From an uncultured Lawsonia sp. (GTDB lineage Bacteria > Desulfobacterota > Desulfovibrionia > Desulfovibrionales > Desulfovibrionaceae): DNA of 42,490 bases. Within the stretch, counting starts at the first letter, position 1. Each line of letters opens with the position of its first letter. Shown here piece after piece: positions 1,550 through 28,065 of the stretch. The notes beneath the pieces are model-generated. The model saw nothing but the letters and a program-made list of their open reading frames with translations, was not told the origin of the DNA and did not search any database. Location: NCBI GenBank assembly GCA_964425055.1, contig CAYRKU010000003.1, positions 1,894-44,383 of the forward strand. The letters are read 5' to 3'. Position numbers and translations under genes: made by a program.

Positions 1550-2320
1550 TCAGCGTTTCCACACATTCAGGAAGGATGCGGCGCTTCCGCCGGCATCAAG
1601 ATGTTTCAGCAGTGCGCTGCCAAACACCACGGCATCAGGGCGCTTTTCCGGCGGCAGGCCGGCCAGCTGCCCTGGCTCGCGCAGGCCAAACCCCAGAGCC
1701 ACAGGGATAGAAAAGGCACGCCGGGCCCGCTCCAGCGTGATTTCCACTTCCGGGGGCAGTCCATCCCGTTCACCTGTGGTCCCCAGTACGGAGACCACAT
1801 ACGCATAGCCCCGGCTTACCTTAGCATACATAGACATTCGCTCTTCCGGAGTATTGGGCCCCACAAGGGCAAGGAGATCTATCCCCTGGCGGTTGAGCGC
1901 TTCCCGAAAGGAATAACTTTCATCCAATGGCAAATCCGGCACAATGCAGCCGTGCACCCCGGCCAGGGCCGCATCTGTGGCAAAACGTTCCAGTCCATAC
2001 TGCAAAAAGGGGTTCATATACCCCATCAGCACCAGCCCAGCCCGGATACTCCCGGCCCGGCGGAGCAGATCTTCAATCAAGCCGGAAAGGGTCACCCCCA
2101 GCCGCAACGCCCGCTGGGAGGCGCTTTCCACCACCGGGCCGTCGGCCACAGGGTCAGAAAAAGGTACGCCTATTTCAATAATATCCGCGCCGCACGTATC
2201 CAACTCATGTAAAACAGTCCAAAAACGATCCTTGTCCGGAAAGCCGGCGGTAAGAAAGGGGATAAGCGCTGTCCGGCCTTCCGCCCTGGCTGCCTGTATT
2301 TTCTGTTCCAAAATCGACAT
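1550..2320 (-). CDS. trpA: Tryptophan synthase alpha chain
   Basis: LIPFLTAGFP, IEIGVPFSDPVADGPVV, MGYMNP and VPDLP motifs; last gene of the trp operon. Confidence 0.97.
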   Translation of the reverse strand: MSILEQKIQAARAEGRTALIPFLTAGFPDKDRFWTVLHELDTCGADIIEIGVPFSDPVADGPVVESASQRALRLGVTLSGLIEDLLRRAGSIRAGLVLMGYMNPFLQYGLERFATDAALAGVHGCIVPDLPLDESYSFREALNRQGIDLLALVGPNTPEERMSMYAKVSRGYAYVVSVLGTTGERDGLPPEVEITLERARRAFSIPVALGFGLREPGQLAGLPPEKRPDAVVFGSALLKHLDAGGSAASFLNVWKR

Positions 2321-2333
2321 GCTTTTGCCCTCC

Positions 2334-3524
2334 TTAAAGGCGCAGCGCGCTTACCTGCTCAGGCAACGGATGCCCGGCCACAATATCCATATCCTTATCC
2401 CCACGGCCAGACAGATTGACAACCACGTTTCCGCCTCTGGGGAAACGATCGGGATGTTCCAGAACCCAGGCTAGCGCGTGTGAAGACTCCAGCGCCGGCA
2501 GGATACCCTCCGCGCGGCACAGCTCCGCAAAGGCATTAAGTGCCCCGGCGTCATTCACCAACCCGTAAAAAACGCGGCCCGTAGCGTTGAAATAGGCATG
2601 CTCCGGCCCCACGCCGGGATAATCCAATCCGGCTGAAACAGAGCCTGACGGTAAAATCTGCCCATCGGCATCCTGCAGGAGCATGGTAAGCTCCCCATGC
2701 AGCACTCCTGGAGAACCCAGATTCAGCGGGGCGGAATTCTGGCAGCCAGGCTCGCCGCTACCCGCCGCTTCTACGCCTTCTAGGCGTACTTCAGCGTCAT
2801 CAATAAACGGATGAAACATGCCGATGGCATTTGAACCGCCGCCCACGCAGGCCACAACCACATCAGGCAGTTTACCGGTCAGCTTCAGCATTTGGGCTCG
2901 TGTTTCCCGGCCGATCACACTCTGAAAATCGCGCACCAATGTGGGGAATGGATGCGGCCCGGCCGCCGTGCCAAAGCAATAATGAGTGCTTTCCTGAGCG
3001 GCTATCCAATACCGCAGTGCTTCGTTAATGGCGTCCTTCAAAGTTTGGCTGCCGCTCCGCACCGGCTGTACCACAGCGCCCAGCAGCCTCATCCTTCGGA
3101 CGTTTGACGACTGGCGTTCCACATCTTCCGCACCCATAAAAATGGTGCAGTCCATGCCCAGGCGCGCAGCGGCAGCCGCCGTGGCCACACCGTGCTGGCC
3201 GGCGCCGGTTTCAGCCACCAGGGCTGTTTTGCCCATATGTTTGGCCAATAACGCCTGACCCAGGGTGTTGTTGATTTTGTGCGCGCCTGTGTGCAGCAAA
3301 TCCTCCCGCTTTAACCACAGGGAGAAACCCAACCGCTCTGAAAGCGTGGGGCACAGAGTCAGTGGGGTTTCACGTCCGGCATAGTTGCGCAGCAAATCGT
3401 TCAGCTCCGCCTGAAAAGCGGCAGTTGGCAGAATGTCGCACATGGCCTCTTCCAGTTCATTCAGCGGCGGTATAAGCAGCTCAGGCACGAACTGCCCCCC
3501 GAATTGTCCGAAGTAGCCTTTCAT
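2334..3524 (-). CDS. trpB: Tryptophan synthase beta chain (operon copy, TrpB1 type)
   Basis: [15 protein letters not shown] (PLP lysine), [37 protein letters not shown]. Confidence 0.98.
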
Positions 3525-4234
3525 CAGCGTGCTTCCTTTTCGGCTTTGTTATAAGGGCAAAAGGTACCGGCAGCACACGGTTGCGCAACTGTGGCCCCGG
3601 GTAATTTTCCAATTGCGCGCATGGCTGCTGCCATGCGCTGGTGATCCTTACATCCGGGGGCCGATTCCAGCCCGGAATTGAGGTCAACACCATAAAAGGC
3701 AACGTCATGGCAGGCAGCGACGGCTTCAGCCACTGTGTCCGGGCCAAGGCCTCCGGCCAGCAGCCACGGCCGGGGGGAATGCAATCCGGCCAGGCTCTCC
3801 AGCGCAATACGGCTGCCGCTCCCACCCCAGCTTGTGCCCGCATCCAGCAGAAACATTCCGGCTGTAGGGGCATAATGGCGCATGGCTGCTTCCAGCTGGA
3901 CTTTGTCAGCATAGCGGGCAGGCCACAGCACCCGGATAATTCGCCCGGCTGGAAGGCGCATGGCACGCACGCACGCTTCCGGCTGGTCACCATGCAGCTG
4001 CAGTATATCCAGACGCGCCTTACACATCAGGCCAAGCAGCTTCTCAGGGTCAGCGTCCACAACCACTCCCACACGGGTGCACCCCCGGCTGTTCAGCTTT
4101 GCCGCCTCTTCCGGCAGGATACAGCGCTGGCTGCCCGCCGCAAAAATAAAACCGCACATGTCCGCGCCCAAGCTCACGGCGCAGTCCACATCTTCCTGGC
4201 GGCGCAGGCCGCATATTTTCACGTGGAGCGTCAT
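3524..4234 (-). CDS. trpF: Phosphoribosylanthranilate isomerase
   Basis: VKICGL, QLHG, LAGGL and [16 protein letters not shown] motifs. Confidence 0.95.
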
Positions 4235-5091
4235 GCACTTTCCCTCAACACCCGCGCCTGGAACACCTTTGCCGCGCTATCCTGCTCATTCAGCGCTGAC
4301 TGGGCGTCCCGCCCCAGCAGGGCGGCCAGCGCCTTGCCCGGCCGACCGCCACGCATCAGCGCGGTACCCACCAACACAGCCTGATAGCCGCAATCCGCAG
4401 CCTGCTTTAAGTGGGCGGGCCGATCCATCCCACTGGCCGCAATCCATATTTCCTCTGGCCCCGCGGTGCGGAAGCGTTCCGCCAGGCGCATGCAGGCGGC
4501 CCTGTCCACATGCAGTGTATCCAGATCGCGGGCGTTTACCTGAATAATCCGGGCGCCCGATTCCCTGGCCAGGCGTAAATCTGTTTCATCAAACACTTCC
4601 ACTACGGCATCCATGCCGCCCGCTTCAGCCTGTTCACGCAGGCGGCGCAGAGTTACCGCATCAGGGGTAAGCCGGACAATCAGCAACAGGGCCGAAGCCG
4701 GAGTGGCCAGCGTAGCATTCACCTGCAACGGGTCAAAAATAAAATCTTTGCGCAGCAGGGGGAGGCAGGGGCCGCTCATGCGAGAAAGGTAGCGAATATT
4801 GCCTTTGAAAAAGATTTCTTCAGTCAGTACTGACAGGCAGTCTGCCCCGTTCACAGCGTACTCCCGGGCAGCTGTTTCCGGTGTGATGTTCAGGGCAATA
4901 TCTCCACAGGAAGGAGAGGCCCGCTTGTATTCTGCAATCACGCGTACCGGGGCGCTCCCCGCTGCAGTTAGGGCCGCAGCAAACGAAGGCCGACCCCCGG
5001 GAAAAGGAACGGGGGCCAGGCCTGCATTTTCCAGCTGGCGTAAACGGTGTATTTCCTGTTCTTTAGCGCGAACAAAATGTTCAAGCCGCAT
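4231..5091 (-). CDS. trpC: Indole-3-glycerol phosphate synthase
   Basis: VIAEYKRASPS, LSVLTE, LLRKDFIFDPLQ and VNARDL motifs. Confidence 0.96.
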   Translation of the reverse strand: MRLEHFVRAKEQEIHRLRQLENAGLAPVPFPGGRPSFAAALTAAGSAPVRVIAEYKRASPSCGDIALNITPETAAREYAVNGADCLSVLTEEIFFKGNIRYLSRMSGPCLPLLRKDFIFDPLQVNATLATPASALLLIVRLTPDAVTLRRLREQAEAGGMDAVVEVFDETDLRLARESGARIIQVNARDLDTLHVDRAACMRLAERFRTAGPEEIWIAASGMDRPAHLKQAADCGYQAVLVGTALMRGGRPGKALAALLGRDAQSALNEQDSAAKVFQARVLRESA

Positions 5092-6079
5092 GAATCACTC
5101 TCCCGCCCACGCCGGCAGCGACTGCCTCCCGCGCTTTGGCCATGCACTCCTGCAGCGGGATAGTTTCTTCCAGCAGATGCAGGCACACGCCTATATTAAG
5201 TACCAGCATATCTTGCATGGCTTTTGGGCCGCCGCCTGAAAGCAGGTCTCGCAGAACATGTACAGCTTCTTCCCGGCTGTGCACGCTCAGCTCTTCAGGC
5301 CGGCACGGCGCAATGCCAAAGTCAGCCGGGTTCAGGGTATACTGCTCCAGTTTACCCTCCCGCAGTAAAATCATTTCATTGGGGCCAAGCTGGGTGATTT
5401 CGTCATAGCCGCCGGCACCGCACACCACAGCAGCCCGTTGTACTGAAGTCAGGGCCAGGGTTTCGGCCATCAAGCGCACCTGATTAGGCCGGGCCACGCC
5501 AAGCAGAATATGCGTAGGCTGGGCAGGGTTGACCAGAGGGCCGAGCAGGTTGAACAGGGTCCGGATGCCCAGTTCTTTACGAATGGGGGCAATGTTGCGG
5601 AAAGATGGATGAAAATGCTGCGCAAAAAGAAACACAAAATTGTTCTTCTTCAGCAGCTCGCCGGCTTTGGCCGGGTCAATATGCAAATCCACACCCAACC
5701 CTTCCAGAACATCAGCACTGCCGCTTGTGGAAGAAGCCGCACGGTTGCCGTGCTTGGCAACCGGGTAGCCCATACCGGCCAGGGTCAGAGCCGTTCCGGT
5801 GGAGCAGTTGAAAGACGAGCGGCCGTCCCCACCGGTACCCACCACTTCAATTCGTGTCCCTTCAATGCCTTCGGCCCGTACAGCACGGGCCAGCACAACA
5901 CGTATGGCCTGGGCCATTTCCACAGGGCTTTCGCCCTTCATCCGCAGCCCCATCAAAAAGGCGCCAGCCTGTGACGGGGTCATTGCCCCATCCATCAACG
6001 CAGTAAAGCCGTCAAAGGCCATGTCTTCGCTCAGATTGTTTCCCAAAGCCAATGTTTCAAGAATAGTGCTGATGCTCAT
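5081..6079 (-). CDS. trpD: Anthranilate phosphoribosyltransferase
   Basis: GTGGDG, FNCST, KHGNRAASSTSGSAD and RTLFNLLGPL motifs. Confidence 0.97.
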   Translation of the reverse strand: MSISTILETLALGNNLSEDMAFDGFTALMDGAMTPSQAGAFLMGLRMKGESPVEMAQAIRVVLARAVRAEGIEGTRIEVVGTGGDGRSSFNCSTGTALTLAGMGYPVAKHGNRAASSTSGSADVLEGLGVDLHIDPAKAGELLKKNNFVFLFAQHFHPSFRNIAPIRKELGIRTLFNLLGPLVNPAQPTHILLGVARPNQVRLMAETLALTSVQRAAVVCGAGGYDEITQLGPNEMILLREGKLEQYTLNPADFGIAPCRPEELSVHSREEAVHVLRDLLSGGGPKAMQDMLVLNIGVCLHLLEETIPLQECMAKAREAVAAGVGGRVIHAA

Positions 6080-6669
6080 TGTATCTCCTCATTGATGACA
6101 GCCCGGGGAAAATTGGCAAGCAGCTGCAGTCCGTCCGGTGTAAGGATTGATTCCGGATGAAACTGCACGCCCACCCACGGGCGATCTTTGTAACGTAATG
6201 CCATGATTTCACCTTCCGGAGCGCGGGCGGTTACCGTAAACGGGCACTGGGCAGCATCCATATCCGGATACACCACCAGCGAATGGTAGCGCCCCACACG
6301 CATTGGGTTGGGCAGGCCGGAAAACAACCCCGTACCATCATGCCGGATATCAGACGTTTTGCCGTGCATAACCCGTGGACCGGGAATAACACGTGCCCCG
6401 GCGAACAGGCCCAGGGCCTGATGCCCAAGGCAGACACCCAATATCGGAATTTCTGGAGCGATCCGATGCAAAAATTCCAGGCACAGGCCCGCATTTTGCG
6501 GATGGCCAGGCCCGGGGGAGATGCACACCATGCTCAGCTGTGCGTTCTGCGCCATATCCAGCAGGCGTGGATCGTCGTTTTTCAGTACAACCGGCGGCTG
6601 CCCAAGGCTATAAAAGGCCTGGACCAGATTGTAGGTAAACGAATCGTAATTATCGATCAGCAGAAACAT
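6076..6669 (-). CDS. trpG: Anthranilate synthase component II (glutamine amidotransferase)
   Basis: IDNYDSFTYNL, SPGPG, GVCLGHQ, RYHSL, QFHPES; start moved to ATG 6669. Confidence 0.96.
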   Translation of the reverse strand: MFLLIDNYDSFTYNLVQAFYSLGQPPVVLKNDDPRLLDMAQNAQLSMVCISPGPGHPQNAGLCLEFLHRIAPEIPILGVCLGHQALGLFAGARVIPGPRVMHGKTSDIRHDGTGLFSGLPNPMRVGRYHSLVVYPDMDAAQCPFTVTARAPEGEIMALRYKDRPWVGVQFHPESILTPDGLQLLANFPRAVINEEIQ

Positions 6670-8077
6670 GTTCTTCACTCCCATAATTAAGCACAGCGCG
6701 GATCACAGCAGATTTGTTGCACACTTCCTTCCATTCCAGGGCCGGGTTGGAATCGTGTACAATACCAGCCCCGGCCTGCCAGTTGATTCGGCCGTCTTTC
6801 AGCCACATGCTGCGGATGATGATCCCGGTATCCAAATTTACGCTTCCCGCATCCAGGCCAATCCAACCCATACATCCGGCATAGGGGCCACGGGGCAAAT
6901 TTTCCATTTCAGCAATAATTTCCATGGCCCGCACCTTAGGTGCGCCGCTTACCGTACCGGCAGGGAAGGTTGCCGCCAATACATCCAGGGCATCCAGCCC
7001 GGGCTGCAGCCGGGCCGTGATCCGCGAGGTCAAATGCATCACATGGGAGAAGCGTTCCACTTCCATCAGCCGCTCCACATTCACTGTACCTGGGCTGGCA
7101 ATACTGCCCAGGTCATTTCGGCCAAGGTCCACCAGCATCACATGTTCCGCCTGCTCCTTCGGGTCTTCCCGCAGTTCATCAGCTAGGCGAATGTCTTCCG
7201 CATCGTCCACACCGCGCCGCCGCGTCCCGGCAATGGGCGAAAGCTGTAACAGACCATCAGTACAACGCACCATTACTTCCGGCGAAGCGCTGATCAGTGT
7301 CAAATCCGGCAAATCCATGTAGACCATGTAGGGCGAAGGGTTCAGCTGCCGTATCCGGCGGTACAGAGAAAATGTATCCCCCGTAAAGGATGCGCTGAAG
7401 CGGCAGGAGGGCACTATTTGAATGGCCTCGCCCAGGCGAAGCATTTCCCTGGTTTGCTCTACCACCCGCATGTATCCTTCCTGGCCGGGGTCAGCCTGTA
7501 CGGCGTCTTCATCTATGGGCGGAAAGGCAGCCGCAGGTTGGGAAGCTGCCCCGCATATGTCCCGTTGCGGGCCAAGGCTGGCCTGGAAAAGCCTGTTGTA
7601 CAGATGATCAAACATCAACACCGTACCGGCCAGCACCAGACAGGCATCGGCATCCGCACCGGGTAAACATCCGGCCAGTTTTGGGTTGAACAGCCCGGCC
7701 ATACCGTAGCCAAAATATCCGTATAAAGCCCGTGTGATCGGTGGCAGGCTATTCCCGGCAGAGGCTTCAAGGCGCAGGCAGCGCATCAGCTGCCGCAGCC
7801 CGTCAATAAACGGCAGCCCGTTCAATACAGCCAGGGGGGCAAGGCGATCGTCGGCAATGTCTACGGCCAGAGCGCCATCTTTACACCGAACTGTCAGCAA
7901 ATAGTCCCCACCCAATACACTGTAACGTCCCCATCGCCCGTCCACCTCCGCGCTTTCCAGAAGAATCCCAGGCCTATCCCTGCATAAACCAAGGAAAAGG
8001 CTGATAGGCGTGTCCATATCCGCAGGCAGGCGACGCACTGTCTGACGCAAAATAATGGGAGAAAGGGAAACTGACAT
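6650..8077 (-). CDS. trpE: Anthranilate synthase component I
   Basis: LLES, NPSPYM, PIAGTR, AEHVMLVDLGRNDL, FPAGTVSGAPK and QAGAGIV motifs. Confidence 0.96.
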   Translation of the reverse strand: MSVSLSPIILRQTVRRLPADMDTPISLFLGLCRDRPGILLESAEVDGRWGRYSVLGGDYLLTVRCKDGALAVDIADDRLAPLAVLNGLPFIDGLRQLMRCLRLEASAGNSLPPITRALYGYFGYGMAGLFNPKLAGCLPGADADACLVLAGTVLMFDHLYNRLFQASLGPQRDICGAASQPAAAFPPIDEDAVQADPGQEGYMRVVEQTREMLRLGEAIQIVPSCRFSASFTGDTFSLYRRIRQLNPSPYMVYMDLPDLTLISASPEVMVRCTDGLLQLSPIAGTRRRGVDDAEDIRLADELREDPKEQAEHVMLVDLGRNDLGSIASPGTVNVERLMEVERFSHVMHLTSRITARLQPGLDALDVLAATFPAGTVSGAPKVRAMEIIAEMENLPRGPYAGCMGWIGLDAGSVNLDTGIIIRSMWLKDGRINWQAGAGIVHDSNPALEWKEVCNKSAVIRAVLNYGSEEHVSADR

Positions 8078-8167: not shown

Positions 8168-8251
8168 CTACACAGCCCGCACCCCTCCCTTCGCATCTGT
8201 AATGCGCCACCACCGAAACTGGACAGAACGGGAAAGAAAGAAACAGGACAT
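8168..8251 (-). CDS. trpL: trp operon leader peptide (27 aa, MSCFFLSRSVQFRWWRITDAKGGVRAV)
   Basis: Translated by hand. Tandem TGG TGG codons lie between the promoter and the terminator; too short for the ORF track. Confidence 0.85.
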   Translation of the reverse strand: MSCFFLSRSVQFRWWRITDAKGGVRAV

Positions 8252-10696: not shown

Positions 10697-10955
10697 AGGT
10701 GTCTAGGAGAAACCATTTTTGATAAGAATCACAGGTAGGACGGCAATACTCTGTTCTTCGAAATACTATTTTCACGGTAGTACCTGATGCGCCTTTTCAG
10801 CGGAATGGACAACTCCTCTGAACATGACAAGCACTCATTTCCTGTATGAATTCGGAATCTTCCTTACGCGAGGCTGCGCGGGTACACGGTTTTTACCCCA
10901 ACCATAACCGCGTTTGCGGTATGGCAGCAACACACTTTCTCTGAAGGAGTCTTTC

Positions 10956-12044
10956 ATGAATGGCAAGAATCTCTTTGCCAGTACCGGTGGTATTGTCTTT
11001 GTAGGTGCGCTTATCGGCCTTGCTGCCATCCTGCTGCAAAAATTGGGCAATCCAGCTAACATGGGTATATGTGTGGCCTGTTTTGAGCGCGACATTACGG
11101 GCGGTCTCGGCCTGCATCGCGCCGCTGCTGTGCAGTACATCCGCCCGGAAATTATCGGTTTTGTTCTCGGCTCCATGGGCATAGCCCTGGTGGCCGGGGA
11201 GTTTCGCTCCCGCGGAGGATCCGCGCCGCTGGTGCGCTTTATTCTCGGCATGGTTGCGGCTGTGGGTGCCCTTGTTTTCCTTGGCTGCCCCTGGCGTACC
11301 CTTCTTCGCCTTGCAGGTGGAGACGGCAATGCCCTGTTCGGCCTTGCCGGGCTTATCTGCGGCATTGGCGGTGGAACGCTGTTCTTCAGGCGCGGCTATT
11401 CCCTGGGCAGCAGTGTTAAGCAGAATGCGGCCGTCGGCTACTTTTTCCCCCTGCTTATGGTCGGTCTCCTCTGCCTGTATCTGGTTTTTCCGCAGATTCC
11501 CGGAGAAGCGCAGAACGGCCCTCTTTTCTACTCCAAAAGCGGTCCAGGTTCGGCGCATGCCCCCTTCCTTCTCTCTTTTGGGGTAGCTCTGGTTATTGGC
11601 GCATTAGCGCAGCGCAGCCGTTTCTGCACAATGGGAGCTTTTCGCGACCTCATCCTCTTCCGCTATACCCATCTTTTCCTCGGGGTGGTGGCCATGTTTG
11701 CCGCGGCCTTTCTGGCCAATCTGCTTACGGGAGGTTTCCATGCCGGCTTTGAAGGCCAGCCTGTGGCGCACAGCGATGGCCTGTGGAATTTTCTGGGTAT
11801 GGTTACCGCCGGCCTAGCCTTTGCCCTGGCCGGCGGATGCCCCGGCCGGCAGCTTTTTATGGCCGGTGAAGGCGACAGCGATGCCGCTGTTTTTGCCCTC
11901 GGTATGCTTACCGGCGCGGCCATGGCGCACAATCTCGGCACTGCCAGCTCAGCTTCCGGCATAGGAACCTATGGTGCGCAGGGAACACTTATCGGTCTTA
12001 TCGTCTGCCTGGTTATTGGCTTCGCCTTTTCGAGAAAAGCCTGA
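10956..12044 (+). CDS. yedE: YedE-family putative selenium transporter
   Basis: GNPANMGICVACFERD, YIRPEI, FLGCP, QRSRFC and GGCPGRQ motifs; clustered with selD; start moved to ATG 10956 after GAAGGAG. Confidence 0.9.
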   Translation: MNGKNLFASTGGIVFVGALIGLAAILLQKLGNPANMGICVACFERDITGGLGLHRAAAVQYIRPEIIGFVLGSMGIALVAGEFRSRGGSAPLVRFILGMVAAVGALVFLGCPWRTLLRLAGGDGNALFGLAGLICGIGGGTLFFRRGYSLGSSVKQNAAVGYFFPLLMVGLLCLYLVFPQIPGEAQNGPLFYSKSGPGSAHAPFLLSFGVALVIGALAQRSRFCTMGAFRDLILFRYTHLFLGVVAMFAAAFLANLLTGGFHAGFEGQPVAHSDGLWNFLGMVTAGLAFALAGGCPGRQLFMAGEGDSDAAVFALGMLTGAAMAHNLGTASSASGIGTYGAQGTLIGLIVCLVIGFAFSRKA

Positions 12045-12046
12045 TG

Positions 12047-12264
12047 TTAGCGCAGATTGAAAATCAGTTTGAAAACTGCCCGGCGTCCGGAAATGCAAAC
12101 CGGAACAGCACCTGAAGGAGCGTGCCCGTTAGCAGCAAAGCCGCCTGGCGGACATCAGGATCAAATCTGGCGCCCGCTCCAACGTGAGTGAAAATTTACT
12201 TCTTTTTCACGAAACGCCAGCATGGCTGGAAACCTGTAACGTTTCCAACCCCAAAATGTTCTAA
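12047..12264 (+). repeat. MITE/REP-like dispersed intergenic repeat
   Basis: Shares AGTTTGAAAA(A)C(T/C)GCCCGGCG, the TGAG(T/C)GAAAA...TTTTTC(A/G)C(G/A)AAACGCC block and an exact 24-mer GCTGGAAACCTGTAACGTTTCCAA (12225-12248 = 17081-17104) with the 17.1-kb copy. Confidence 0.6.
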
Positions 12265-12276
12265 AGGAGAAAAAAT

Positions 12277-12480
12277 ATGCTTATTGATACACGCGGCCTA
12301 TCGTGCCCGCAGCCTGTTCTCATGGTTTACCCCCACCTTTCCGGAACTGATCCCATAGATGTGCTTGTGGATAATACAACGAGCCGGGAAAACGTCAGCC
12401 GTGCCGCGCTGCATACCGGCTGGAAGGTTGAAGAGCATCAGGAAGAAGATGGTGTTGTCCGCCTGGAGCTTCGTAAGTAA
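12277..12480 (+). CDS. TusA/SirA/YedF-family sulfur/selenium carrier protein
   Basis: IDTRGLSCPQPV (CPxP) motif, 67 aa, strong AAGGAG RBS. Confidence 0.92.
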   Translation: MLIDTRGLSCPQPVLMVYPHLSGTDPIDVLVDNTTSRENVSRAALHTGWKVEEHQEEDGVVRLELRK

Positions 12481-13058
12481 TGTTTAAAAACCTGACGGGC
12501 TGGCTGAAACGGCGCGATGCCGGGGCGCGGGGAAAAAACGCTTCCGCGGACAGAGGCTTTCTTGTCTTTCAACACACCGGTGAAGTAATACGGGCAGAAC
12601 GTTGCCTTCGGGCAGCAGGATTTTCGGTGGAGGTCAAGGGGCCTCCGCCTGAGCTCCGGACTGGTTGCGACATGGTGGTAGTTTTCCCGCTCATCATGGA
12701 ATCAGCCGTGCGCCGTATTCTGAAAGAGGAAAAACTTCTCCCCATGAACGTGGTTCCGGTAAACGATTCCCTTTTGGAGCCTGTGTCTCTTTATTGTGTA
12801 AAGGACTACGGAAACTGGTTCATGGTTCAGGCCGCCAACGTGAAAATCACCGTGGAAACGGCAAGCGGGCGTATTGTCAATGTTTCCGGAGGCGGATGCC
12901 CGGATGTGCCGTATCTGGCATCCCTGCTGACGGGGGTGAACATTGATGCCGCCGAGGAACCCCGTGTGCATGGGCATACTCTGTGTTCCTACGCTCTTCA
13001 GAAGGCTTTTCTCGAAGCCCGCCGCCTTTGGCGGGGAGGTAAAGCATGCGCTGGCTGA
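12480..13058 (+). CDS. DUF3343 domain-containing protein (putative Se/S carrier) with C-terminal Cys-containing extension
   Basis: FQHTGEVIRAE...KGPPPELRTGC matches DUF3343; also GGGCPDVP and TLCSY; TAATG overlap with the upstream gene. Confidence 0.8.
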   Translation: MFKNLTGWLKRRDAGARGKNASADRGFLVFQHTGEVIRAERCLRAAGFSVEVKGPPPELRTGCDMVVVFPLIMESAVRRILKEEKLLPMNVVPVNDSLLEPVSLYCVKDYGNWFMVQAANVKITVETASGRIVNVSGGGCPDVPYLASLLTGVNIDAAEEPRVHGHTLCSYALQKAFLEARRLWRGGKACAG

Positions 13059-13966
13059 TCTGCGGGACAGTGCCGGATGATACCTTTCCCCTGAGCCTTG
13101 GGGTATGGCACGTGGCGGGAGAGCGTCTTCTTCCCGCCGATGTTTCCGCCTGTGAAAGCCATGTTACCGTACCCGCCGTGCCTATTCTCCGTGGAACTCC
13201 CGCGCTGACCGCGGCGGCCATACTGGCATTGGAAAAGCTCCAGGCACCGCCGCCTCTGGTGCTGCTGGCGGGAGACTGCGGCTCCTCCAAAGGCAGTACG
13301 GCGCTGTACGCATTCCTTTCATCATGGCTGTCTTCACCGGACGCTGCCGGCCTTGCGGGACTGACCTTTCATTACCTCTTTCCCAGTGTGGACGGACAGA
13401 ATCGTATTCTTATGGCACTGGAGGAGCGCAGTGCCGCCATGCCTGTGCTCATTGCCGATGCCGGGTTCATGTATGCAGCAAAAATGAGCGGGTATGCCTC
13501 CCGCTATGATGTGTTCACCCCGGACGTTGGGGAATTGGCCTTTCTGGCGGATGAAAAAGCTCCTCATCCTTTCTATACCCGCGGCTTTCTACTGTCGGAG
13601 GGGAATAAAGCAGAAGATCTGGCCGCGCTGGCATGGAAACACGAAGACAGTGCAAAGTTTCTCCTTATCAAGGGCATATCTGACATCATCACGGAAAATG
13701 GGCGGGAAGTCGGACGGGTGACGGAACCTTCGTTGCCTTTTATGGAACCTATAGGCGGCACAGGAGACATGCTTACCGGGCTGCTGACGGCTTTTGCCGC
13801 GGCTGGAAATCCACTTCGCGAGGCCTGCCTTCTGTCCGCACGGTGTGCAAGGCTTATCGGAGAGCTGACCAGCCCGACACCGGCGACCGCTATTGCGGAA
13901 TTCATGCCTTTTGTTGCAGAAGGTGTGGCCAGGATACAACATGAAAAAACCTGTAACCTGCATTAA
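13046..13966 (+). CDS. Ribokinase/YjeF-C (carbohydrate kinase-like) fold protein of unknown substrate
   Basis: LIADAG, FTPDVGEL, LLIKG.SD and GGTGDMLTG motifs of the ribokinase-like/NnrD superfamily. Confidence 0.72.
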   Translation: MRWLICGTVPDDTFPLSLGVWHVAGERLLPADVSACESHVTVPAVPILRGTPALTAAAILALEKLQAPPPLVLLAGDCGSSKGSTALYAFLSSWLSSPDAAGLAGLTFHYLFPSVDGQNRILMALEERSAAMPVLIADAGFMYAAKMSGYASRYDVFTPDVGELAFLADEKAPHPFYTRGFLLSEGNKAEDLAALAWKHEDSAKFLLIKGISDIITENGREVGRVTEPSLPFMEPIGGTGDMLTGLLTAFAAAGNPLREACLLSARCARLIGELTSPTPATAIAEFMPFVAEGVARIQHEKTCNLH

Positions 13967-13979
13967 CTACGGGGAATCT

Positions 13980-15047
13980 ATGACAACATTCTGCCTGATG
14001 GATAAGACCAGAGGCGCCGGCTGAGCGGCGAAGACGGCTCCAGAGTTGCTGGAACAGATTCTTTCCGCAATAACACCGCCTCCCGACTGGGAGGGGCGTA
14101 TTCTGCACGGTTATTCCAACAATGAAGACGCAGTCGTGATCAAGGCGCCTCCATCTGGGCTTGCCCTGGTACAAACGGTTGACATTCTTGGTGTAATAGG
14201 CAATGACGCGCGGCTTTTCGGCCAAACGGCGGCAGCCAATGCGCTGTCTGATGTCTATGCCATGGGCGGCTGGCCGTGGTCCGTTATGAACATTGCCGCT
14301 TTTCCCTCCCCTTCATCGGAATCGGACACCCCGTTTTCCGTATTGACAGACATCCTGTCCGGGGCAATGGAAAAAGTGGCGGAGTCCGGGGCCGTACTTG
14401 CCGGCGGGCATACACTTGATGACGAATGGATAAAGTTTGGCCTGTCTGTTACCGGAGTGGTTGACCCCGCGAATGTCGCGCGGAATGACAAACTCAGCCC
14501 GGGCGATGTTCTTATTCTCACAAAACCCCTGGGCACCGGTGTTCTGGCAACGGCTATCAAGGCGGGATGGTCCGGCAGCAGCGAGGCTGAGCGGGACATG
14601 TATCACTGGACAACGCGGCTAAACGCCCATGCAGCGACGTTGATACGGGAAATGAAACTCAGAGCCGCCACAGACATTACCGGCTTCGGGCTGGGTGGAC
14701 ATGCGCTGGAAATGGCCAGTGGATCCAAGGTTTCTGTGGAACTGGACACAGCGGCGCTGCCCTTTATCGATCAAGTGGAGGAATTTGCGTCCTGTGGCCT
14801 GATTCCCGCAGGGACCTATCGCAACAGAGATTATTGTTCCTGCCGCACAACAGTGGCCGATGGCGCCGACGAACTGCGGGCGACTCTGGCTTTCGATGCG
14901 CAAACTTCAGGGGGCCTTCTGCTGGCTGTGCCTGCCGAGCGGGAGCAGGAGGCCTGTGAACGACTCCGAAACCTTGGAGAACCGGCATTCCGCGTGGGCA
15001 GGGTGCTGCCACAGCGTGAAGAAAAGGAGCAGCTCATTTTAGCGTGA
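13980..15047 (+). CDS. selD: Selenophosphate synthetase (selenide, water dikinase), selenocysteine-containing
   Basis: ATG 13980 gives MTTFCLMDKTRGAG-U(TGA 14022-14024)-AAK, in frame with NEDA, QTVD, ANALSDVYAMGG, GGHT, TDITGFGLGGH and DAQTSGGLL. Confidence 0.93.
14022..14053 (+). promoter_or_regulatory. Bacterial SECIS element of selD
   Basis: Stem TCCAG(14039-43)/CTGGA(14049-53) with loop AGTTG, G at loop position 2; the loop starts 19 nt after the UGA. Confidence 0.7.
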
Positions 15048-15809: not shown

Positions 15810-17021
15810 CTACGGGTTTACCTCAAGCAGCTTCGCCACCTGATCCACATCCTTATCCCCTCTGCCCGAAAGGTTGACCAAAATGACCTGATCCCCGGGC
15901 ATGGTGGGGGCGATGCGCAGAGCGTGGGCCAGAGCGTGGGCGGATTCCAGGGCCGGAATAATACCTTCGGCGCGCGAAAGCAGAAGGAAGGCGTCCACAG
16001 CTTCTTTGTCGGAAACGGTCACGTAGCTGGCGCGGCCCATGTCTTTGAGCTGGCTATGCTCGGGACTGACGCCCGGGTAGTCCAGTCCGGCGGAAATGGA
16101 ATACACCGGCGCTGGCTCGCCCTTTTCGTCCTGCAGCATATAGCAGCGATAGCCGTGCATGACGCCTGGCTGGCCCAGGCAGAGGCTGGCCGCGTTATCG
16201 CCATAGCTCAGGCCGCGTCCGCCAGGTTCGGCGCCCACGAGCTGCACGGGGGCGTCGTCCAGAAATTCAGCAAAGGCGCCGGCCGCATTGGAGCCGCCGC
16301 CCACGCAGGCAATGACCATGTTGGGCAGTCTCCCCAATTCCTCCAGACACTGGGCGCGCGCCTCACGGCTGATAACCGCCTGAAAATGCCGCACAATCAC
16401 AGGATAAGGGTGCGGGCCAACAGCAGAACCTAACACATAGAACATGTCCGGATCCTGCACAAAGCAGTCCAGAGCTTCGTCCACGGCTTCCTTGAGGGTG
16501 CGCTGCCCGCTCATGGCCGCGCGCACTTCGGCGCCCATCATGCGCATGCGCACCACGTTGAGGGCCTGGCGCTGCATGTCCACTTCACCCATATAGATGA
16601 CACAGGGCAGGCCAAAAAGGGCCGCGGTAGCCGCTGTGGCCACACCGTGCTGCCCGGCGCCGGTTTCAGCCACAACTCTTTTTTTGCCCATACGTTTGGC
16701 CAAGAGCACCTGGCCCAGGGTATTGTTGATTTTATGCGCCCCAAGGTGGTTCAAATCCTCACGCTTCAGGTAAATTTGCGCGCCGCCCAGCTTTTCGCTC
16801 AAATTACGGCAGTGATAGATGGGTGAAGGCCGGCCCACGTAGTGTTTGTAAAGGTCCTGCAACTCGGCGTTGAACTCCGGGTCATCGCGGTATTTATTGA
16901 AGGCCGTGGCCACATCGTCCAGGACTTTCTTAAGGGGTTCGGGCACATACTGGCCGCCATACGCGCCAAAAACGCCCGTACTGTAGGCCTGTCTGGCCAT
17001 TTCTCCGGCGGAAATGCTCAC
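15810..17021 (-). CDS. trpB: Second, stand-alone tryptophan synthase beta chain (TrpB1 type), no adjacent trpA
   Basis: [52 protein letters not shown]. Start moved to GTG 17021, 6 nt after AAGGAG. Confidence 0.95.
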   Translation of the reverse strand: MSISAGEMARQAYSTGVFGAYGGQYVPEPLKKVLDDVATAFNKYRDDPEFNAELQDLYKHYVGRPSPIYHCRNLSEKLGGAQIYLKREDLNHLGAHKINNTLGQVLLAKRMGKKRVVAETGAGQHGVATAATAALFGLPCVIYMGEVDMQRQALNVVRMRMMGAEVRAAMSGQRTLKEAVDEALDCFVQDPDMFYVLGSAVGPHPYPVIVRHFQAVISREARAQCLEELGRLPNMVIACVGGGSNAAGAFAEFLDDAPVQLVGAEPGGRGLSYGDNAASLCLGQPGVMHGYRCYMLQDEKGEPAPVYSISAGLDYPGVSPEHSQLKDMGRASYVTVSDKEAVDAFLLLSRAEGIIPALESAHALAHALRIAPTMPGDQVILVNLSGRGDKDVDQVAKLLEVNP

Positions 17022-17080
17022 TTTTTGCTCCTTTTTGGGCGAAAATGCCGTTGTGTTCTGTTTTGCGCTGCTGGAAATAA

Positions 17081-17180
17081 GCTGGAAACCTGTAACGTTT
17101 CCAAGCATACGCGCCGGCGTTTTGCGAAAAATTACCTTTTCGCTCATTTGAGCGCCGGGCGGTTTTTCAAACTACTCCAG
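17081..17180 (-). repeat. Dispersed intergenic repeat between ubiD and trpB
   Basis: Minus strand AGTTTGAAAAACCGCCCGGCG...TGAGCGAAAAGGTAATTTTTCGCAAAACGCCGGCG...TTGGAAACGTTACAGGTTTCCAGC, homologous to 12047-12264. Confidence 0.6.
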
Positions 17181-17187
17181 GCGCGTT

Positions 17188-18525
17188 TTACTCAATCACA
17201 TAGTCCGCCAAATCCACCTTCTGGTACGAAATCTTGTCGTAGCGGGGCGATCTGGGCAGAGGGCAGGTGCAGTCAAAGCCGATCTTAGAGCCCACGTTGT
17301 CCTTAACAGTGGGGTTGAGCTCATGGCAGAACGCGTTCTTGATAATGATAACATCGTTTGCCGGGTCGCAGCGCGTGACCATGGCGCGCTCCACGTCTTC
17401 GGAGTCGTAAATATCCACGTCGCTGTTCACCGCGCGCACCATCTGCAGAGGCGGAAAGGCGGCAAAAGCGGCCAGGATGGCATTTTTGGCCATGCCGTTT
17501 TTGGGCGGGTCTATCTGTAAAATCATACCGTAATGGCTGCCGCCGTGAGTAAGGAATACTTTCTTCAGCCCGGGCACCTGGCGGGAAATGGTTTGGAACA
17601 CGTTGGCTTCTACACCTAACCCAACTGAATTCCACACTTCGCGACCCGGATGCAGGGTGTGGATAATAGGGTCGCGGTTGAGGGTAATGGCCGAAATTTC
17701 CACCACCCAGCGATTTTCGCGGGTGGCATAGTAGCCGCTCACCTCGCCAAACGGCCCTTCCGGCTCGCGCACATGCGGCAGAATCCGCGCTTCCATAATC
17801 ATCTGCGCGTCGGCAATACCTTCTACATCTACGGTGAGGCTCCTGCACAGGCGCGCCGGCTCCTTAAGTAGATACGAGGCCACCCCCAGCTCATCCATAT
17901 CGATAGGGGCTGCGGCGCTGGGCGTGATGGCCGCCACGTAAAAGGCCGGATGCGGACCGTTATTGATAGTAATTTCCAACGGCTTGTCCATGGCTTCGGC
18001 GCGCTCGTAGTAGTCGCGCAGATGCCGGCCCACGTCCATGAGCAGGCCCAGACGGTTCTTGCCCGTAACCATAAGGCGGTGCACCGAAGTATTGCGCACG
18101 CCGGTTTCCGGGTCTTTGGCAATGACCACACAGTTGGAAAAGTACGGGCCACCGTCTTTGAGGGCATGGGTGGGAACGGGGATTTTTGTGAGATCGGGCT
18201 CGGGCATTACGTAGGACTGCGCCGGAGCGTTCTCCACCACCACGGGTGCCACAGGGTTAGAACGCAGCGAGGCCACAGCGTCAGCAAAGAGGAACGAAAG
18301 TTCTTCCGTACTGCAGCCAAAAATACAGGCCAGGTTGTCACGGTTCCACCACAGGCCGGTAACCAGCGGATAGGCCGATCCCTTTACCCTGTCGAACTGC
18401 ACTACCCTGCCTCCTTCCAGACGGGAAGAAATACCCCCGATCTCGTGCACCGGATCTACCTCTGTGCGCACGTGGCACAGGCGGCCGTTCTCTTCCAAAA
18501 GCCTGAGACAATCTTTTAGATCCAT
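17188..18525 (-). CDS. UbiD-family prFMN-dependent (de)carboxylase, substrate unknown
   Basis: DGGPY, RNTSVHR, GRHL (Arg), EPEGPFGEVSGYY (catalytic Glu pair), DVDIYD and SKIGFDCT motifs; start ATG 18525. Confidence 0.93.
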   Translation of the reverse strand: MDLKDCLRLLEENGRLCHVRTEVDPVHEIGGISSRLEGGRVVQFDRVKGSAYPLVTGLWWNRDNLACIFGCSTEELSFLFADAVASLRSNPVAPVVVENAPAQSYVMPEPDLTKIPVPTHALKDGGPYFSNCVVIAKDPETGVRNTSVHRLMVTGKNRLGLLMDVGRHLRDYYERAEAMDKPLEITINNGPHPAFYVAAITPSAAAPIDMDELGVASYLLKEPARLCRSLTVDVEGIADAQMIMEARILPHVREPEGPFGEVSGYYATRENRWVVEISAITLNRDPIIHTLHPGREVWNSVGLGVEANVFQTISRQVPGLKKVFLTHGGSHYGMILQIDPPKNGMAKNAILAAFAAFPPLQMVRAVNSDVDIYDSEDVERAMVTRCDPANDVIIIKNAFCHELNPTVKDNVGSKIGFDCTCPLPRSPRYDKISYQKVDLADYVIE

Positions 18526-18653
18526 GTAAAACCTTCCTGTTTTGCTGTAAAAAAGCGGGGAAATATCCTGCGTTCCCCAGAAAGAGACAGAACCGGCACC
18601 GAAGAGGCGCGCCCGCCAGCAACGCAGGCGCCCTACGGGCATCAACAGCAGCG

Positions 18654-19142
18654 CTATGCGTTACGGCGTCTCCGCGGCACGTCTGGCCCGCGCCCTGTGC
18701 CCCCGGAACTGCCCTGGGATACTTTTGCCCCGGCTTCAGTTCCCGTGCGCCGGGCTATGGCATCAGCGGCCGCGTGGGCGTTCAGCACCAGCCTTTCAAT
18801 CTCCTCCGGCATCGCGCCATCAACATGTATGCCCACGGCCACACAGACCGTAGCCCGCCAGATTTTGCACAGTTTTCGCGCCAGAGCGTGGGCCACAGTG
18901 TCATCGCGGTGCCCCGGCGCCGTGAGCACCCCGGCGGAAGCGGACACGCCGTTTGTTCCCTCGGGGCAATACACCGCCAGAGCCACGGCCCCCACGTGCG
19001 CTGTTCCACCATAAACCTGAACCAGCCAGTCTTTTCCCTGGGCCACGGCCCGCGCCGTGACGGCCAGCCTGCCCTCGCCCGCAGTATGCAAAAACCCGTC
19101 AGCCGTCCCTGGCTCTTTAGCCTCCCGAACCACTTTGACCAC
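18654..19142 (-). CDS. LpdD-like prenylated-flavin chaperone/accessory protein
   Basis: GKDWLVQVYGGTAHVGAVALA, PGHRDD and VCVAVGIHVD motifs; sits between ubiX and ubiD; start uncertain. Confidence 0.7.
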   Translation of the reverse strand: MVKVVREAKEPGTADGFLHTAGEGRLAVTARAVAQGKDWLVQVYGGTAHVGAVALAVYCPEGTNGVSASAGVLTAPGHRDDTVAHALARKLCKIWRATVCVAVGIHVDGAMPEEIERLVLNAHAAADAIARRTGTEAGAKVSQGSSGGTGRGPDVPRRRRNA

Positions 19143-19145
19143 CCC

Positions 19146-19709
19146 TTATCCGTCTTTCCAGGCGCGAAAGTTGGGCAGGGTTATGCCAAAGGGCAGGAGC
19201 GCCTTAGCCAGAATATGATCTATATGATCCTGTACGGATTGCGGGCGGTTGTAAAAGGTAAGCACAGGCGGAACAATAACGCAGCCTAGGTCCGCGGCTG
19301 TGCAGAGATTGCGCAGATGCACCTTGCCGAGGGGCATTTCCCGCGGGATGAGCACCACCGTACGCCGCTCCTTCAGGCAGACATCGGCCGCACGCTGCAA
19401 AAGATTCTCGGTATAGCCGCACACCAGCGCGGCCAGGGATTTCATGCTGCACGGGGCAATAATCATACCCGCAGCGGTATAGGAACCGCTGGAAATTGGG
19501 GCCTCCATGTCATCCGCACTGTATGAAACATGCGCCAGGCCGCGGGCCTGCGCCGGGGAACATTCACCTTCCAGAATCAGGTTGCGCTCCGCCTGAGGCG
19601 TCATGACTAAATGCGTTTCCACAGCGTCCATGCCTTGAAGGAGCTGCAGAAGCCGTACCCCCAGCGTAACGCCATCGGCGCCGGTCATGCCCACAATGAT
19701 CCGCTTCAC
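19146..19709 (-). CDS. ubiX: UbiX-family flavin prenyltransferase
   Basis: IIVGMTGA, APISSGS, APCSMKSL, RAADVCLKERR, REMP and PPVLTFYNRP motifs; GTG 19709 after AGGAGG. Confidence 0.95.
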   Translation of the reverse strand: MKRIIVGMTGADGVTLGVRLLQLLQGMDAVETHLVMTPQAERNLILEGECSPAQARGLAHVSYSADDMEAPISSGSYTAAGMIIAPCSMKSLAALVCGYTENLLQRAADVCLKERRTVVLIPREMPLGKVHLRNLCTAADLGCVIVPPVLTFYNRPQSVQDHIDHILAKALLPFGITLPNFRAWKDG

Positions 19710-19719
19710 AAAACCTCCT

Positions 19720-19766
19720 AAAACAAAAAAGCGCCGCTTTTGAGGCGTTCCTTTAAAGCGACACTC
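19720..19766 (-). terminator. Intrinsic terminator-like hairpin immediately upstream of the ubiX RBS
   Basis: Minus strand GTGTCGCTTT...AAAGCGGCGC (10 bp, two G-U) followed by TTTTTTGTTTT and then AGGAGG. Confidence 0.6.
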
Positions 19767-19865: not shown

Positions 19866-19895
19866 AGCATAGGTTAGAAGGGACGGAAAAGGCAA
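19866..19895 (-). promoter_or_regulatory. Candidate sigma70 promoter of the ubiX operon
   Basis: Minus strand TTGCCT-18 nt-TATGCT. Confidence 0.4.
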
Positions 19896-20281: not shown

Positions 20282-20357
20282 TGGTGGACCCACGAGGACT
20301 TGAACCTCGGGCCAACCGGTTATGAGCCGGTAGCTCTGCCAACTGAGCTATGGGTCC
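20282..20357 (-). tRNA. tRNA with CAT anticodon, most likely tRNA-Ile2 (lysidine-modified)
   Basis: GGACCCATAGCTCAGTTGGCAGAGCTACCGGCTCATAACCGGTTGGCCCGAGGTTCAAGTCCTCGTGGGTCCACCA (76 nt, encoded CCA). The G1-C72 pair excludes an initiator tRNA; acceptor and anticodon stems look like Ile2. Confidence 0.93.
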
Positions 20358-26114: not shown

Positions 26115-26450
26115 GGCAACCTCCCATAAATTCGCCTGGCCGGAACTGATCTGCCGGCCGGGCTGTGTGTTTGTAACATAAGGCACGGCCGGGGGCAATC
26201 CTGTAACAGGCGGGAAGACTTTGCCAAAATGATAACCTTTTGGCAAAGTTCCTCATATATAGTCGTTGGCGGTGTTGAAAACATAACCTTTTTCTCTGAG
26301 AAAAGCAGCCCGGCGGAGCAGGAGGGCCCGACTAGTTTTTAGCTTTGAGAACCGATTGATATTTCATGGGATTTTATGATTTACACCCCGTTGTTTTTTG
26401 ACTATATTTGTACAAACTTATTGCTACTTTTCACGATAAAAACAGAAAAA

Positions 26451-27359: not shown

Positions 27360-28065
27360 GTGATTATCCAAAGGCATTTCTTGATTTATTACATTCAGTA
27401 CAGGCAAAAAGAGCACGTACTATTATTCATCATATCTTAACTCATGGTTTTATTACTACTGAGGAATTAAAAGAATCATACGGGTATGACCATCCTCCAA
27501 GAGCAATACGAGATGTGAGGGAGTATGGAATACCAGTTACTACATACAGAATAAGAACCTCTGAAGGTAAATCTATCGCTGCGTATAAATTTGGGAATCC
27601 AAATGATATAAAAATCAATTGGAGAAATCAGCTGGGCGAACAGTATCATCAAAGGCTCTGAAACAGGCTTTAATAGAAAAATATGGTCCGAGATGCTTCA
27701 TTTATCTTGAAACTATGGACGCTTCCAGATTGCAGGTAGACCATCGTATTCCCTATGAAATAGGCGGTGAACCTAGTGAGAAAGATATCGATTATTATAT
27801 GCTGTTAAGCCCCTCAGCAAATCGGGCAAAATCATGGACGTGCGAACACTGTGAAAATTGGGAAAGAAAAGAACCCGGTTTTTGTCTTCGGTGTTTTTGG
27901 GCATACCCCGAAAATTATGATCATATCGCAGGCAATAAAGAAAAAATTATTGCCCTGATATTTACAGGTGATGAAGTTGAAGACTATAATAAACTAATTG
28001 AATTATCCGGTGGAAAGAGTGCTCAGGAAACGATAAAACAAATTATTCATGACTACCTGAAATAA
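27356..28065 (+). pseudogene. SphI-like HNH type II restriction endonuclease split by a 1-nt frameshift
   Basis: ORF1 has GYDHPPRAIRD; ORF2 has AGR, LQVDHRIPY, NRAKSWTCEHC and CFWAYPENY. These motifs match R.SphI as recalled. One extra A in the A5 run at 27610-27614 fuses them (DIKNQLEKSAGR). Confidence 0.8.

What the first reader, a model, noticed from the sequence alone, without database searches (positions are those of the whole stretch)
15810..19709. prFMN decarboxylase module (ubiX-lpdD-like-ubiD) wired to a stand-alone TrpB: candidate indole-carboxylate to tryptophan salvage pathway
Seen: four co-oriented genes with gaps of 3, 128 and 166 nt, namely UbiX, an LpdD-like protein, a UbiD-family enzyme with an intact Arg/Glu/Glu motif, and a second full TrpB1 with no trpA beside it. 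The genome already has a complete trpEGDCFBA operon about 8 kb away. Established: UbiX makes prFMN for UbiD enzymes; UbiD members decarboxylate heteroaromatic acids, including indole-3-carboxylate and pyrrole-2-carboxylate; TrpB without TrpA can only use free indole (or analogues) plus serine. Inference: the UbiD releases indole from indole-3-carboxylate, a gut and dietary indole metabolite, or from a substituted indole acid. The linked TrpB then fixes it into Trp or a Trp analogue, bypassing costly de novo synthesis or detoxifying indoles. I know of no described operon with this logic.
Basis: partly seen in the sequence, partly recalled or inferred. Interest (0 to 1): 0.88.

Follow-up and report, generated by a model that had tools for sequence, protein, structure and literature searches.

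The report
Indole-carboxylate to tryptophan salvage cluster
A gut bacterium carries four adjacent genes that likely strip CO2 from indole-3-carboxylic acid and likely build tryptophan from the freed indole; related genes sit beside tryptophan genes or behind predicted tryptophan-starvation switches in several unrelated anaerobes, which points to a salvage route that our literature searches did not find described.

Summary
Observation confirmed: ubiX, lpdD, ubiD and a trpA-less trpB1 lie on the minus strand with gaps of 3, 128 and 166 nt.

The UbiD's best solved relative is indole-3-carboxylate decarboxylase AnInD. The Asp modelled to bind the indole N is kept in 113 of 113 clade loci and 0 of 74 other UbiDs. 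A trpA/trpB gene lies within 1.5 kb in 8 of 45 clade clusters, against 1 of 66 control clusters. The links are scattered over the tree and use three kinds of TrpB. Five of 29 loci scanned carry a Trp-codon (UGG) T-box ahead of the cassette, one of them without trpB. The extra TrpB belongs to a trpA-less clade that carries the stand-alone-activating N166D change (37 of 37).

Against: most close relatives are unlinked; the window shows no Trp sensor, no transporter and no proof of co-transcription; four positions near the active site differ from AnInD.

The scan earlier noted this UbiD family in another genome's oxoacid operon, without the tryptophan link. Verdict: new variant of indole salvage; interest 0.78.

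The parts
19146..19709 (-). ubiX, flavin prenyltransferase (makes prFMN)
   Evidence: NCBIfam PRK06029/TIGR00421 above cut-off; GTG start with RBS
18654..19142 (-). lpdD-family prFMNH2 chaperone
   Evidence: PF21758; profile hits PDB LpdD 8pzh at E 5e-15, both metal-site His and the Asp align (residues from PMC10865409)
17188..18525 (-). ubiD of the AnInD (indole-3-carboxylate decarboxylase) clade
   Evidence: best PDB hit 7p9q by sequence (E 4e-109) and by fold (E 1e-48, TM 0.86); R150, D164, E256, E261, L403 match AnInD R155, D169, E261, E266, L409
15810..17021 (-). trpA-less TrpB1 with Asp at the Pyrococcus N166 position
   Evidence: TIGR00263; catalytic and PLP residues kept; D181 = Pf N166
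19720..19765 (-). terminator-like hairpin plus U run just before the ubiX RBS (possible attenuator; no Trp leader found)
   Evidence: -18 kcal/mol; 24 of 312 genes of this genome have such a hairpin, so weak
19866..19895 (-). possible sigma-70 promoter, read by eye
   Evidence: sequence; it fails the scan's rule, which found 0 sites; inconclusive
17082..17104 (-). hairpin in the ubiD-trpB spacer with a weak U tail; could reduce read-through
   Evidence: z -2.45 for the 150-nt spacer piece
20282..20357 (-). tRNA-Met(CAU), likely edge of the insertion site
   Evidence: same-genus G012 goes ybgF-tRNA-Met-yedE without the four genes
1550..8077 (-). de novo trpEGDCFBA operon (context)
   Evidence: its TrpB keeps N166 and groups with same-genus operon copies

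Best explanation
The four genes likely form a tryptophan-salvage unit in which UbiX and LpdD are predicted to supply the prFMN cofactor, the UbiD likely decarboxylates indole-3-carboxylate to indole, and the trpA-less TrpB likely joins that indole to serine to give tryptophan. Shown by sequence: gene identities, intact catalytic residues, placement of the UbiD with AnInD-like proteins, repeated linkage to trp genes, and UGG-specifier T-boxes at homologous loci. Established from papers: AnInD turns indole-3-carboxylate into indole; LpdD binds prFMNH2; N166D raises stand-alone TrpB activity. Inferred: the substrate of this particular enzyme, co-transcription in this genome, induction by Trp starvation here, uptake of the acid without a linked transporter, and arrival of the block by horizontal transfer from a Mailhella-like donor next to tRNA-Met.
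For: (1) AnInD is the top hit by sequence (369 bits against 322 for HmfF) and by fold. AnInD is strictly specific for indole-3-carboxylate and D169 variants are severely affected (PMC8988006). The Asp is in 113 of 113 clade loci and 0 of 74 other UbiDs. (2) trpA/trpB within 1.5 kb: 18 of 112 clade loci against 1 of 74 controls; at 90% clusters 8 of 45 against 1 of 66 (Fisher p 0.003); at least 6 label changes are forced on the tree. In a class-wide Negativicutes sample 7 of 11 clade loci are linked. (3) Different layouts and TrpB kinds: trpDCFBA-ubiD-ubiX-lpdD(-trpB2) (L124, L173); cassette between trpA and trpEG (L175); ubiD-trpB2 (L133); ubiD-trpB1 (L140, L147); trpB1-ubiD-ubiX-lpdD (L169); divergent trpB1 (L132, L146); the window's order with TrpB2 in the last slot (L003, UbiD 84% identical). 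(4) T-boxes with a UGG specifier directly before ubiD (L168, L170, L133), before trpB-ubiD (L169), and below threshold before ubiX with no trpB nearby (L014, UbiD 80% identical). (5) Asp at N166 in 37 of 37 trpA-less TrpB1 and 0 of 24 trpA-adjacent ones; N166D gives 2.4-fold kcat/KM (PMC11036396). 28 of 33 orthologues of the extra trpB have a WW leader ORF, against 67 of 953 background genes. (6) G366 has the T-box cluster but no trpA, trpC or trpD hit (1.3 Mb, completeness not given).
Against: Most clade loci are not trp-linked (94 of 112). The commonest context is an oxoacid-oxidoreductase/CoA-transferase operon (CoA-transferase in 43 of 107). The near relatives G331 and G332 hold both genes far apart, and G1136 holds them on different contigs. 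0 of 29 orthologues of the extra trpB have ubiD within 1.5 kb. The window has no T-box and no Trp-codon leader before ubiX or trpB, a hairpin in the ubiD-trpB spacer, and no transporter in the cluster. Structural identity is 41% to both AnInD and HmfF. Four positions near the active site differ from AnInD (L162/N, W298/F, H331/F, E402/G; read from the alignment). One protein outside the clade (P0132) also has the Asp. 24 of 29 loci scanned had no T-box. AnInD's apparent Km is 790 uM, high for a trace metabolite. Kin are not independent, and 28 of the 75 control loci came from one query's best hits.
Confidence: 0.72

Rival explanations
1. Same logic, different acid: the UbiD prefers a substituted indole-3-carboxylate or a related N-heteroaryl acid, and the product feeds TrpB.
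For: Four differences from AnInD near the active site, among them H331 for Phe; only about 41% identity.
Against: Trp-codon T-boxes and placement inside trp operons call for Trp itself. L014 and L003 belong to the window's own subclade and are Trp-regulated or TrpB2-linked. AnInD rejected ten analogues.
Confidence: 0.11
2. In this genome the adjacency is incidental: a mobile ubiX-lpdD-ubiD cassette landed beside an independently expressed indole-salvage trpB, and the decarboxylase serves disposal or catabolism.
For: Nearest relatives are mostly unlinked; the cassette moves between phyla; no Trp sensor found and a hairpin in the spacer.
Against: The extra trpB lacks the WW leader that 28 of 33 orthologues have, and only 166 nt separate it from ubiD. 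Both genes are closest to Mailhella-like genomes while ybgF is closest to the genus, which suggests one block. L003 fills the same slot with TrpB2.
Confidence: 0.11
3. The UbiD is an HmfF-type furan-dicarboxylate or AroY-type phenolic acid decarboxylase, as the automatic labels say, and has nothing to do with indole.
For: JGI labels homologues '2,5-furandicarboxylate decarboxylase 1'; HmfF is the second hit; LpdD is known from the gallate locus.
Against: HmfF-like and AroY-like proteins fall outside the 100%-supported clade or lack the Asp. HmfF R304 and R331 align to V305 and H331 (their role in binding the second carboxylate is recalled, not read). This reading does not explain the Trp T-boxes.
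Confidence: 0.03
4. The unit makes a tryptophan analogue for a natural product.
For: One control locus (L244) has trpB2 beside a different UbiD in a cluster that looks biosynthetic.
Against: No tailoring, assembly or export genes at the window or at the linked clade loci; TrpB active-site residues are canonical.
Confidence: 0.03

Closest known systems
AnInD, indole-3-carboxylate decarboxylase of Arthrobacter nicotianae (PDB 7P9Q; PMC8988006)
   Same: Top sequence and fold hit; R155, D169, E266 and L409 equivalents kept; same clade as proteins that share its motifs.
   Different: About 41% identical; from an anaerobe; comes with ubiX, lpdD and trpB. The parts of the paper read (1-4 of 6) give no physiological role or gene context.
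Indole salvage by TrpB: TrpB2 of Thermococcus kodakarensis and TrpB of Bifidobacterium (PMC11085991, passages)
   Same: Free indole plus serine to Trp without TrpA channelling.
   Different: Here the partner is a TrpB1 paralogue and an upstream decarboxylase would supply the indole from a carboxylate.
Engineered stand-alone TrpB (N166D/N167D; PMC11036396, passages)
   Same: Asp at the same COMM-domain position.
   Different: Natural and clade-wide (37 of 37 sampled), together with other fixed changes (L93, M161, E178, mostly P266); activity untested.
lpdB/lpdC/lpdD gallate decarboxylase system of Lactobacillus plantarum (PMC10865409, passages)
   Same: UbiX + LpdD + UbiD parts list.
   Different: Different UbiD clade and predicted substrate.
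HmfF (6H6V), AroY, HudA, Fdc1
   Same: prFMN fold and Arg/Glu/Glu motif.
   Different: Lower scores; HmfF lacks the indole-binding Asp.

Membership tests
UbiD prFMN decarboxylases | three UbiD domains and the Arg-Glu-Glu/Asp triad | tested here: met
   Pfam UbiD_N, UbiD, UbiD_C; R150/E256/E261
AnInD-type indole-3-carboxylate decarboxylase | closest characterised relative and shared clade | tested here: met
   the tree used motif-sharing proxies P0122-P0125, not AnInD itself
AnInD-type indole-3-carboxylate decarboxylase | Asp169 for the indole N-H | tested here: met
   D164; 113 of 113 clade loci, 0 of 74 controls
AnInD-type indole-3-carboxylate decarboxylase | identical substrate pocket | tested here: inconclusive
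   four nearby differences read from the alignment; no coordinates or docking available
AnInD-type indole-3-carboxylate decarboxylase | activity on indole-3-carboxylate | not testable with these tools
   needs an assay
HmfF furandicarboxylate decarboxylase | clade placement and the two Arg residues (role recalled) | tested here: not met
LpdD chaperone | homology plus His35/His61/Asp63 metal site | tested here: met
   the single sequence alone gave only E 0.63
TrpB1 | TIGR00263 cut-off; PLP Lys, catalytic Glu, Asp305, Ser377 | tested here: met
TrpB2 indole-salvage family | TIGR01415 cut-off | tested here: not met
   187 bits against cut-off 519
Stand-alone (TrpA-independent) TrpB | no adjacent trpA and an activating COMM-domain change | tested here: met
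   activity and lack of TrpA binding not tested
Trp-starvation-controlled operon | T-box or Trp-codon leader ahead of the first gene in this genome | tested here: not met
   met at homologous loci
Trp-starvation-controlled operon | one transcript across ubiD-trpB | not testable with these tools
   needs RNA data

The most novel reading that the evidence does not exclude
AnInD-clade decarboxylases define an unrecognised indole-acid loop in gut, rumen and termite anaerobes. Oscillospiraceae-type operons (2-oxoacid:ferredoxin oxidoreductase + CoA transferase or Ptb/Buk + UbiX + UbiD) burn indole-3-glyoxylate through indole-3-carboxylate to indole with energy gain. Other lineages have repeatedly wired the same enzyme to Trp-starvation switches and to three kinds of TrpB to win back tryptophan, among them a natural TrpB1 clade that reached the laboratory's N166D solution on its own.
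Probability: 0.3. Interest if true: 0.9.

Novelty: new variant of a known kind. Interest (0 to 1): 0.78.

Why it matters
It would give the first physiological role for the indole-3-carboxylate decarboxylase clade, and would correct its automatic 'furandicarboxylate decarboxylase' label. It names a microbial sink for indole-3-carboxylate, a circulating metabolite whose route of formation is called an open question (PMC13400307, passages). It also offers a tryptophanase-independent source of indole, whereas a review calls tryptophanase the sole bacterial indole-producing pathway (PMC6221969, passage). The natural trpA-less TrpB1 clade with N166D is a ready pool of stand-alone TrpB enzymes. Every step can be tested in E. 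coli.

Tried and rejected
First neighbourhood pass: 0 of 23 loci linked. This was wrong by one, because the TrpB1 query missed a partial TrpB2 at the end of L003.

UbiD-TrpB fusion: none among the 14 long or partial representatives scanned. 'Longer' proteins were not searched, so a fusion is not excluded.

Plasmids: 3 weak hits, not followed.

Clostridia sample: only the centre genome of 399 scored had a clade member; two genomes were not scored.

Trp-leader scan before cassettes: 4 of 113 clade loci (two distinct, L010 and L011) against 3 of 72 controls, so the count alone does not discriminate. The L010/L011 leader rests on its conserved promoter-leader-terminator layout. The window's upstream region does not align convincingly with it. 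A local T-box profile also gave one partial control hit (L245) and a weak hit before trpD in L174. Rfam found no T-box.

GC and GC3 give no clear transfer signal (GC3 0.67-0.69, inside the window's range).

In G000: no Mtr/TnaB transporter, no molybdopterin aldehyde oxidoreductase, only weak beta-eliminating-lyase hits (93% complete).

Sequencing runs: no RNA holder listed. Four DNA runs of one study; their contigs cover the genes piecewise, and none of the 32 pieces shown bridges ubiD-trpB (77 not shown).

Literature: 0 papers for UbiD + trpB + indole-3-carboxyl, for T-box + tryptophan + UbiD + regulon, and for indole-3-glyoxyl + ferredoxin oxidoreductase. The 7 papers naming the decarboxylase look biocatalysis- or structure-centred (listing). 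Subscription journals are not covered, and the HmfF structure paper could not be read. No supplements were read; Fig. S2 of PMC8988006 may bear on the pocket comparison. No complex prediction was run.
Full report
Observation. NCBIfam and Pfam call them UbiX, a PF21758 protein, a UbiD and a TrpB1. A profile of 10 homologues of the small protein hits solved LpdD at E 5e-15; LpdD is a prFMNH2 chaperone with a His/His/Asp metal site (PMC10865409, passages). A full trpEGDCFBA set lies 7.7 kb away. The host is a 1.53-Mb, 93% complete genome whose family sample holds the Mailhella loci, so most likely Desulfovibrionaceae; matching runs are labelled feces metagenome.

The decarboxylase. Its best solved relative is AnInD (7P9Q): 369 bits against 322 for HmfF and 194 for AroY. 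A model of mean pLDDT 85 also ranks 7P9Q first, though identity is 41% to both AnInD and HmfF. AnInD is strictly specific for indole-3-carboxylate; docking puts the indole N on D169, and D169 variants are severely affected (PMC8988006, parts 1-4 of 6 read). Counting along the alignment, R155, D169, E261, E266 and L409 match R150, D164, E256, E261 and L403. The Asp is in 113 of 113 clade loci and 0 of 74 other UbiDs; one out-of-clade representative (P0132) has it too. Proteins that share AnInD's motifs nest with the window's enzyme in a 100% SH-aLRT clade that excludes HmfF-like representatives (quick tree). AnInD itself was not in that tree. Four nearby positions differ from AnInD, so the pocket is not identical.

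Linkage. My first pass found 0 of 23 linked loci. The best 80 of 482 metagenome relatives changed the picture: 10 of 107 loci had trpB. A class-wide sample of 401 Negativicutes genomes held 11 clade loci, 7 of them trp-adjacent; three of these are the same sequences as metagenome loci. One rule was then applied to all (trpA or trpB within 1.5 kb; window left out; loci with short or broken UbiD matches and two duplicates dropped). It gave 18 of 112 against 1 of 74 other-clade UbiDs. After clustering: 8 of 45 against 1 of 66 at 90% (p 0.003), 6 of 24 against 1 of 44 at 80% (p 0.006), 5 of 16 against 1 of 23 at 70% (p 0.03). These p values overstate, since kin are not independent and the controls are uneven. 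Short contigs undercount the links. On the tree the 9 linked rows of 46 need 8 changes, at least 6 forced by well-supported branches. The layouts differ. Succiniclasticum-like genomes have trpDCFBA-ubiD-ubiX-lpdD, some with trpB2 after it, and in G723 the cassette sits between trpA and trpEG. L133 has ubiD-trpB2. Two Negativicutes have ubiD-trpB1, one flanked by transporters. G366 has trpB1-ubiD-ubiX-lpdD. L132 and L146 have a divergent trpB1. A Mailhella contig (L003, UbiD 84% identical) has the window's order with TrpB2 in the last slot, cut by the contig end. Three kinds of TrpB in one role is hard to get by chance.

Regulation. Rfam T-boxes lie directly before ubiD in L168, L170 and L133 and before trpB-ubiD in L169; the specifier, read by eye from the alignments, is UGG in all four. 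L014 (UbiD 80% identical, no trpB nearby) has a T-box below the gathering score (71.9 bits, E 1e-15), also with UGG, before ubiX. That is 5 of 29 clade loci scanned, chosen by me and not at random. Two Mailhella loci have a short ORF with tandem Trp codons followed by a terminator before lpdD-ubiD. A Trp-starvation switch in front of the decarboxylase points to its direction and purpose at those loci: it would be there to supply Trp. The window itself has no T-box and no Trp leader, only a terminator-like hairpin before ubiX and a hairpin in the ubiD-trpB spacer.

The extra TrpB. It keeps all checked catalytic residues. It belongs to a trpA-less clade found in about half of 60 relatives (29 full-length hits at 62-72%), none with this UbiD within 1.5 kb. 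All 37 trpA-less TrpB1 sampled have Asp at Pyrococcus position 166, against 0 of 24 trpA-adjacent ones; they form one clade, so this is one event. N166D was found repeatedly in directed evolution and is said to mimic TrpA activation (PMC11036396, passages). 28 of 33 orthologues carry a WW leader ORF, against 67 of 953 background genes. The window's copy lacks one, which fits dependence on the upstream transcript but does not prove it. The deepest branches of this clade (L169, L140/L147, L132/L146) are all ubiD-linked, so the partnership may be old.

History. In same-genus G012, ybgF-tRNA-Met is followed directly by yedE; in the window the four genes lie between them and the yedE block is inverted. 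ybgF is closest to the genus (61-68% against 44-48%). The extra TrpB (77-79% against 67-72%) and the UbiD are closest to Mailhella-like genomes, and the UbiD was found in 0 of 13 same-genus and 4 of 300 family genomes. Transfer as a block is the simplest reading; it is inferred.

Other context. In Oscillospiraceae and other Clostridia the same clade ends an operon of Lrp regulator, four-subunit 2-oxoacid oxidoreductase, CoA transferase (or Ptb/Buk, or an acetate-CoA-ligase-like gene) and ubiX. An earlier scan note (e1-4104072) described such an operon without a substrate. With an indole-specific UbiD the inferred input is indole-3-glyoxylate; this is untested, and pocket residues vary in that branch.

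Verdict. Each enzyme type is known, and indole salvage by TrpB is known (PMC11085991, passages). The decarboxylase-fed route, and its Trp regulation, were not found in print (open-access library only). Confidence 0.72 that this cluster salvages Trp from indole-3-carboxylate; new variant of a known kind; interest 0.78.

Noticed in passing
window 8168-8251 (-), upstream of trpE: 27-codon leader ORF with tandem Trp codons followed by a -23.5 kcal/mol terminator: a classic-looking trp attenuator in a Desulfovibrionaceae-type genome.
   Followed up: partly
L025-L053, L132, L146, L180 (upstream of the extra trpB): 28 of 33 trpA-less trpB genes of the window's order have WW or WWW leader ORFs: an order-wide Trp attenuator on a stand-alone TrpB1.
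   Followed up: partly
L005-L007, L009, L016, L079-L121: Lrp-porCDAB-CoA transferase (or buk/ptb)-ubiX-ubiD operon, often with a DASS transporter; candidate indole-3-glyoxylate to indole route.
   Followed up: partly
L244 (G913:C1:123000-138000): Cluster in a Clostridia genome with a DHQ-synthase-II/AHBA-like gene, AMP ligase, acyl-CoA dehydrogenase, TrpB2, a different UbiD, DgcN, an epimerase, UbiX and an ABC exporter: possible natural-product cluster.
   Followed up: partly
L127 4801-10462: Succiniclasticum-like locus with aminotransferase-ubiD-ubiX-lpdD-iorA-iorB (indolepyruvate oxidoreductase), a further aromatic-amino-acid context.
   Followed up: no
L265 (G007:C1:15529-16717): The extra trpB of a small same-genus genome is split into two overlapping frames, and no second trpB was found in that genome.
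   Followed up: no
window 26376-28065: Dam-family methyltransferase and two ORFs with GC3 0.24-0.31, far below the window's 0.57-0.8: a foreign low-GC islet.
   Followed up: no
window 10914-15047 (+): Selenium cluster yedE, Se/S carrier, kinase-like gene, selD; inverted relative to same-genus G012.
   Followed up: partly
L181 and L274, upstream of the extra trpB: A conserved stretch of about 100 nt shared by two Mailhella-like genomes, with no Rfam match.
   Followed up: partly
L170 5324-5579 and L168 6249-6478: Further T-boxes with non-Trp specifiers in front of transporter-like genes next to the cassette.
   Followed up: partly
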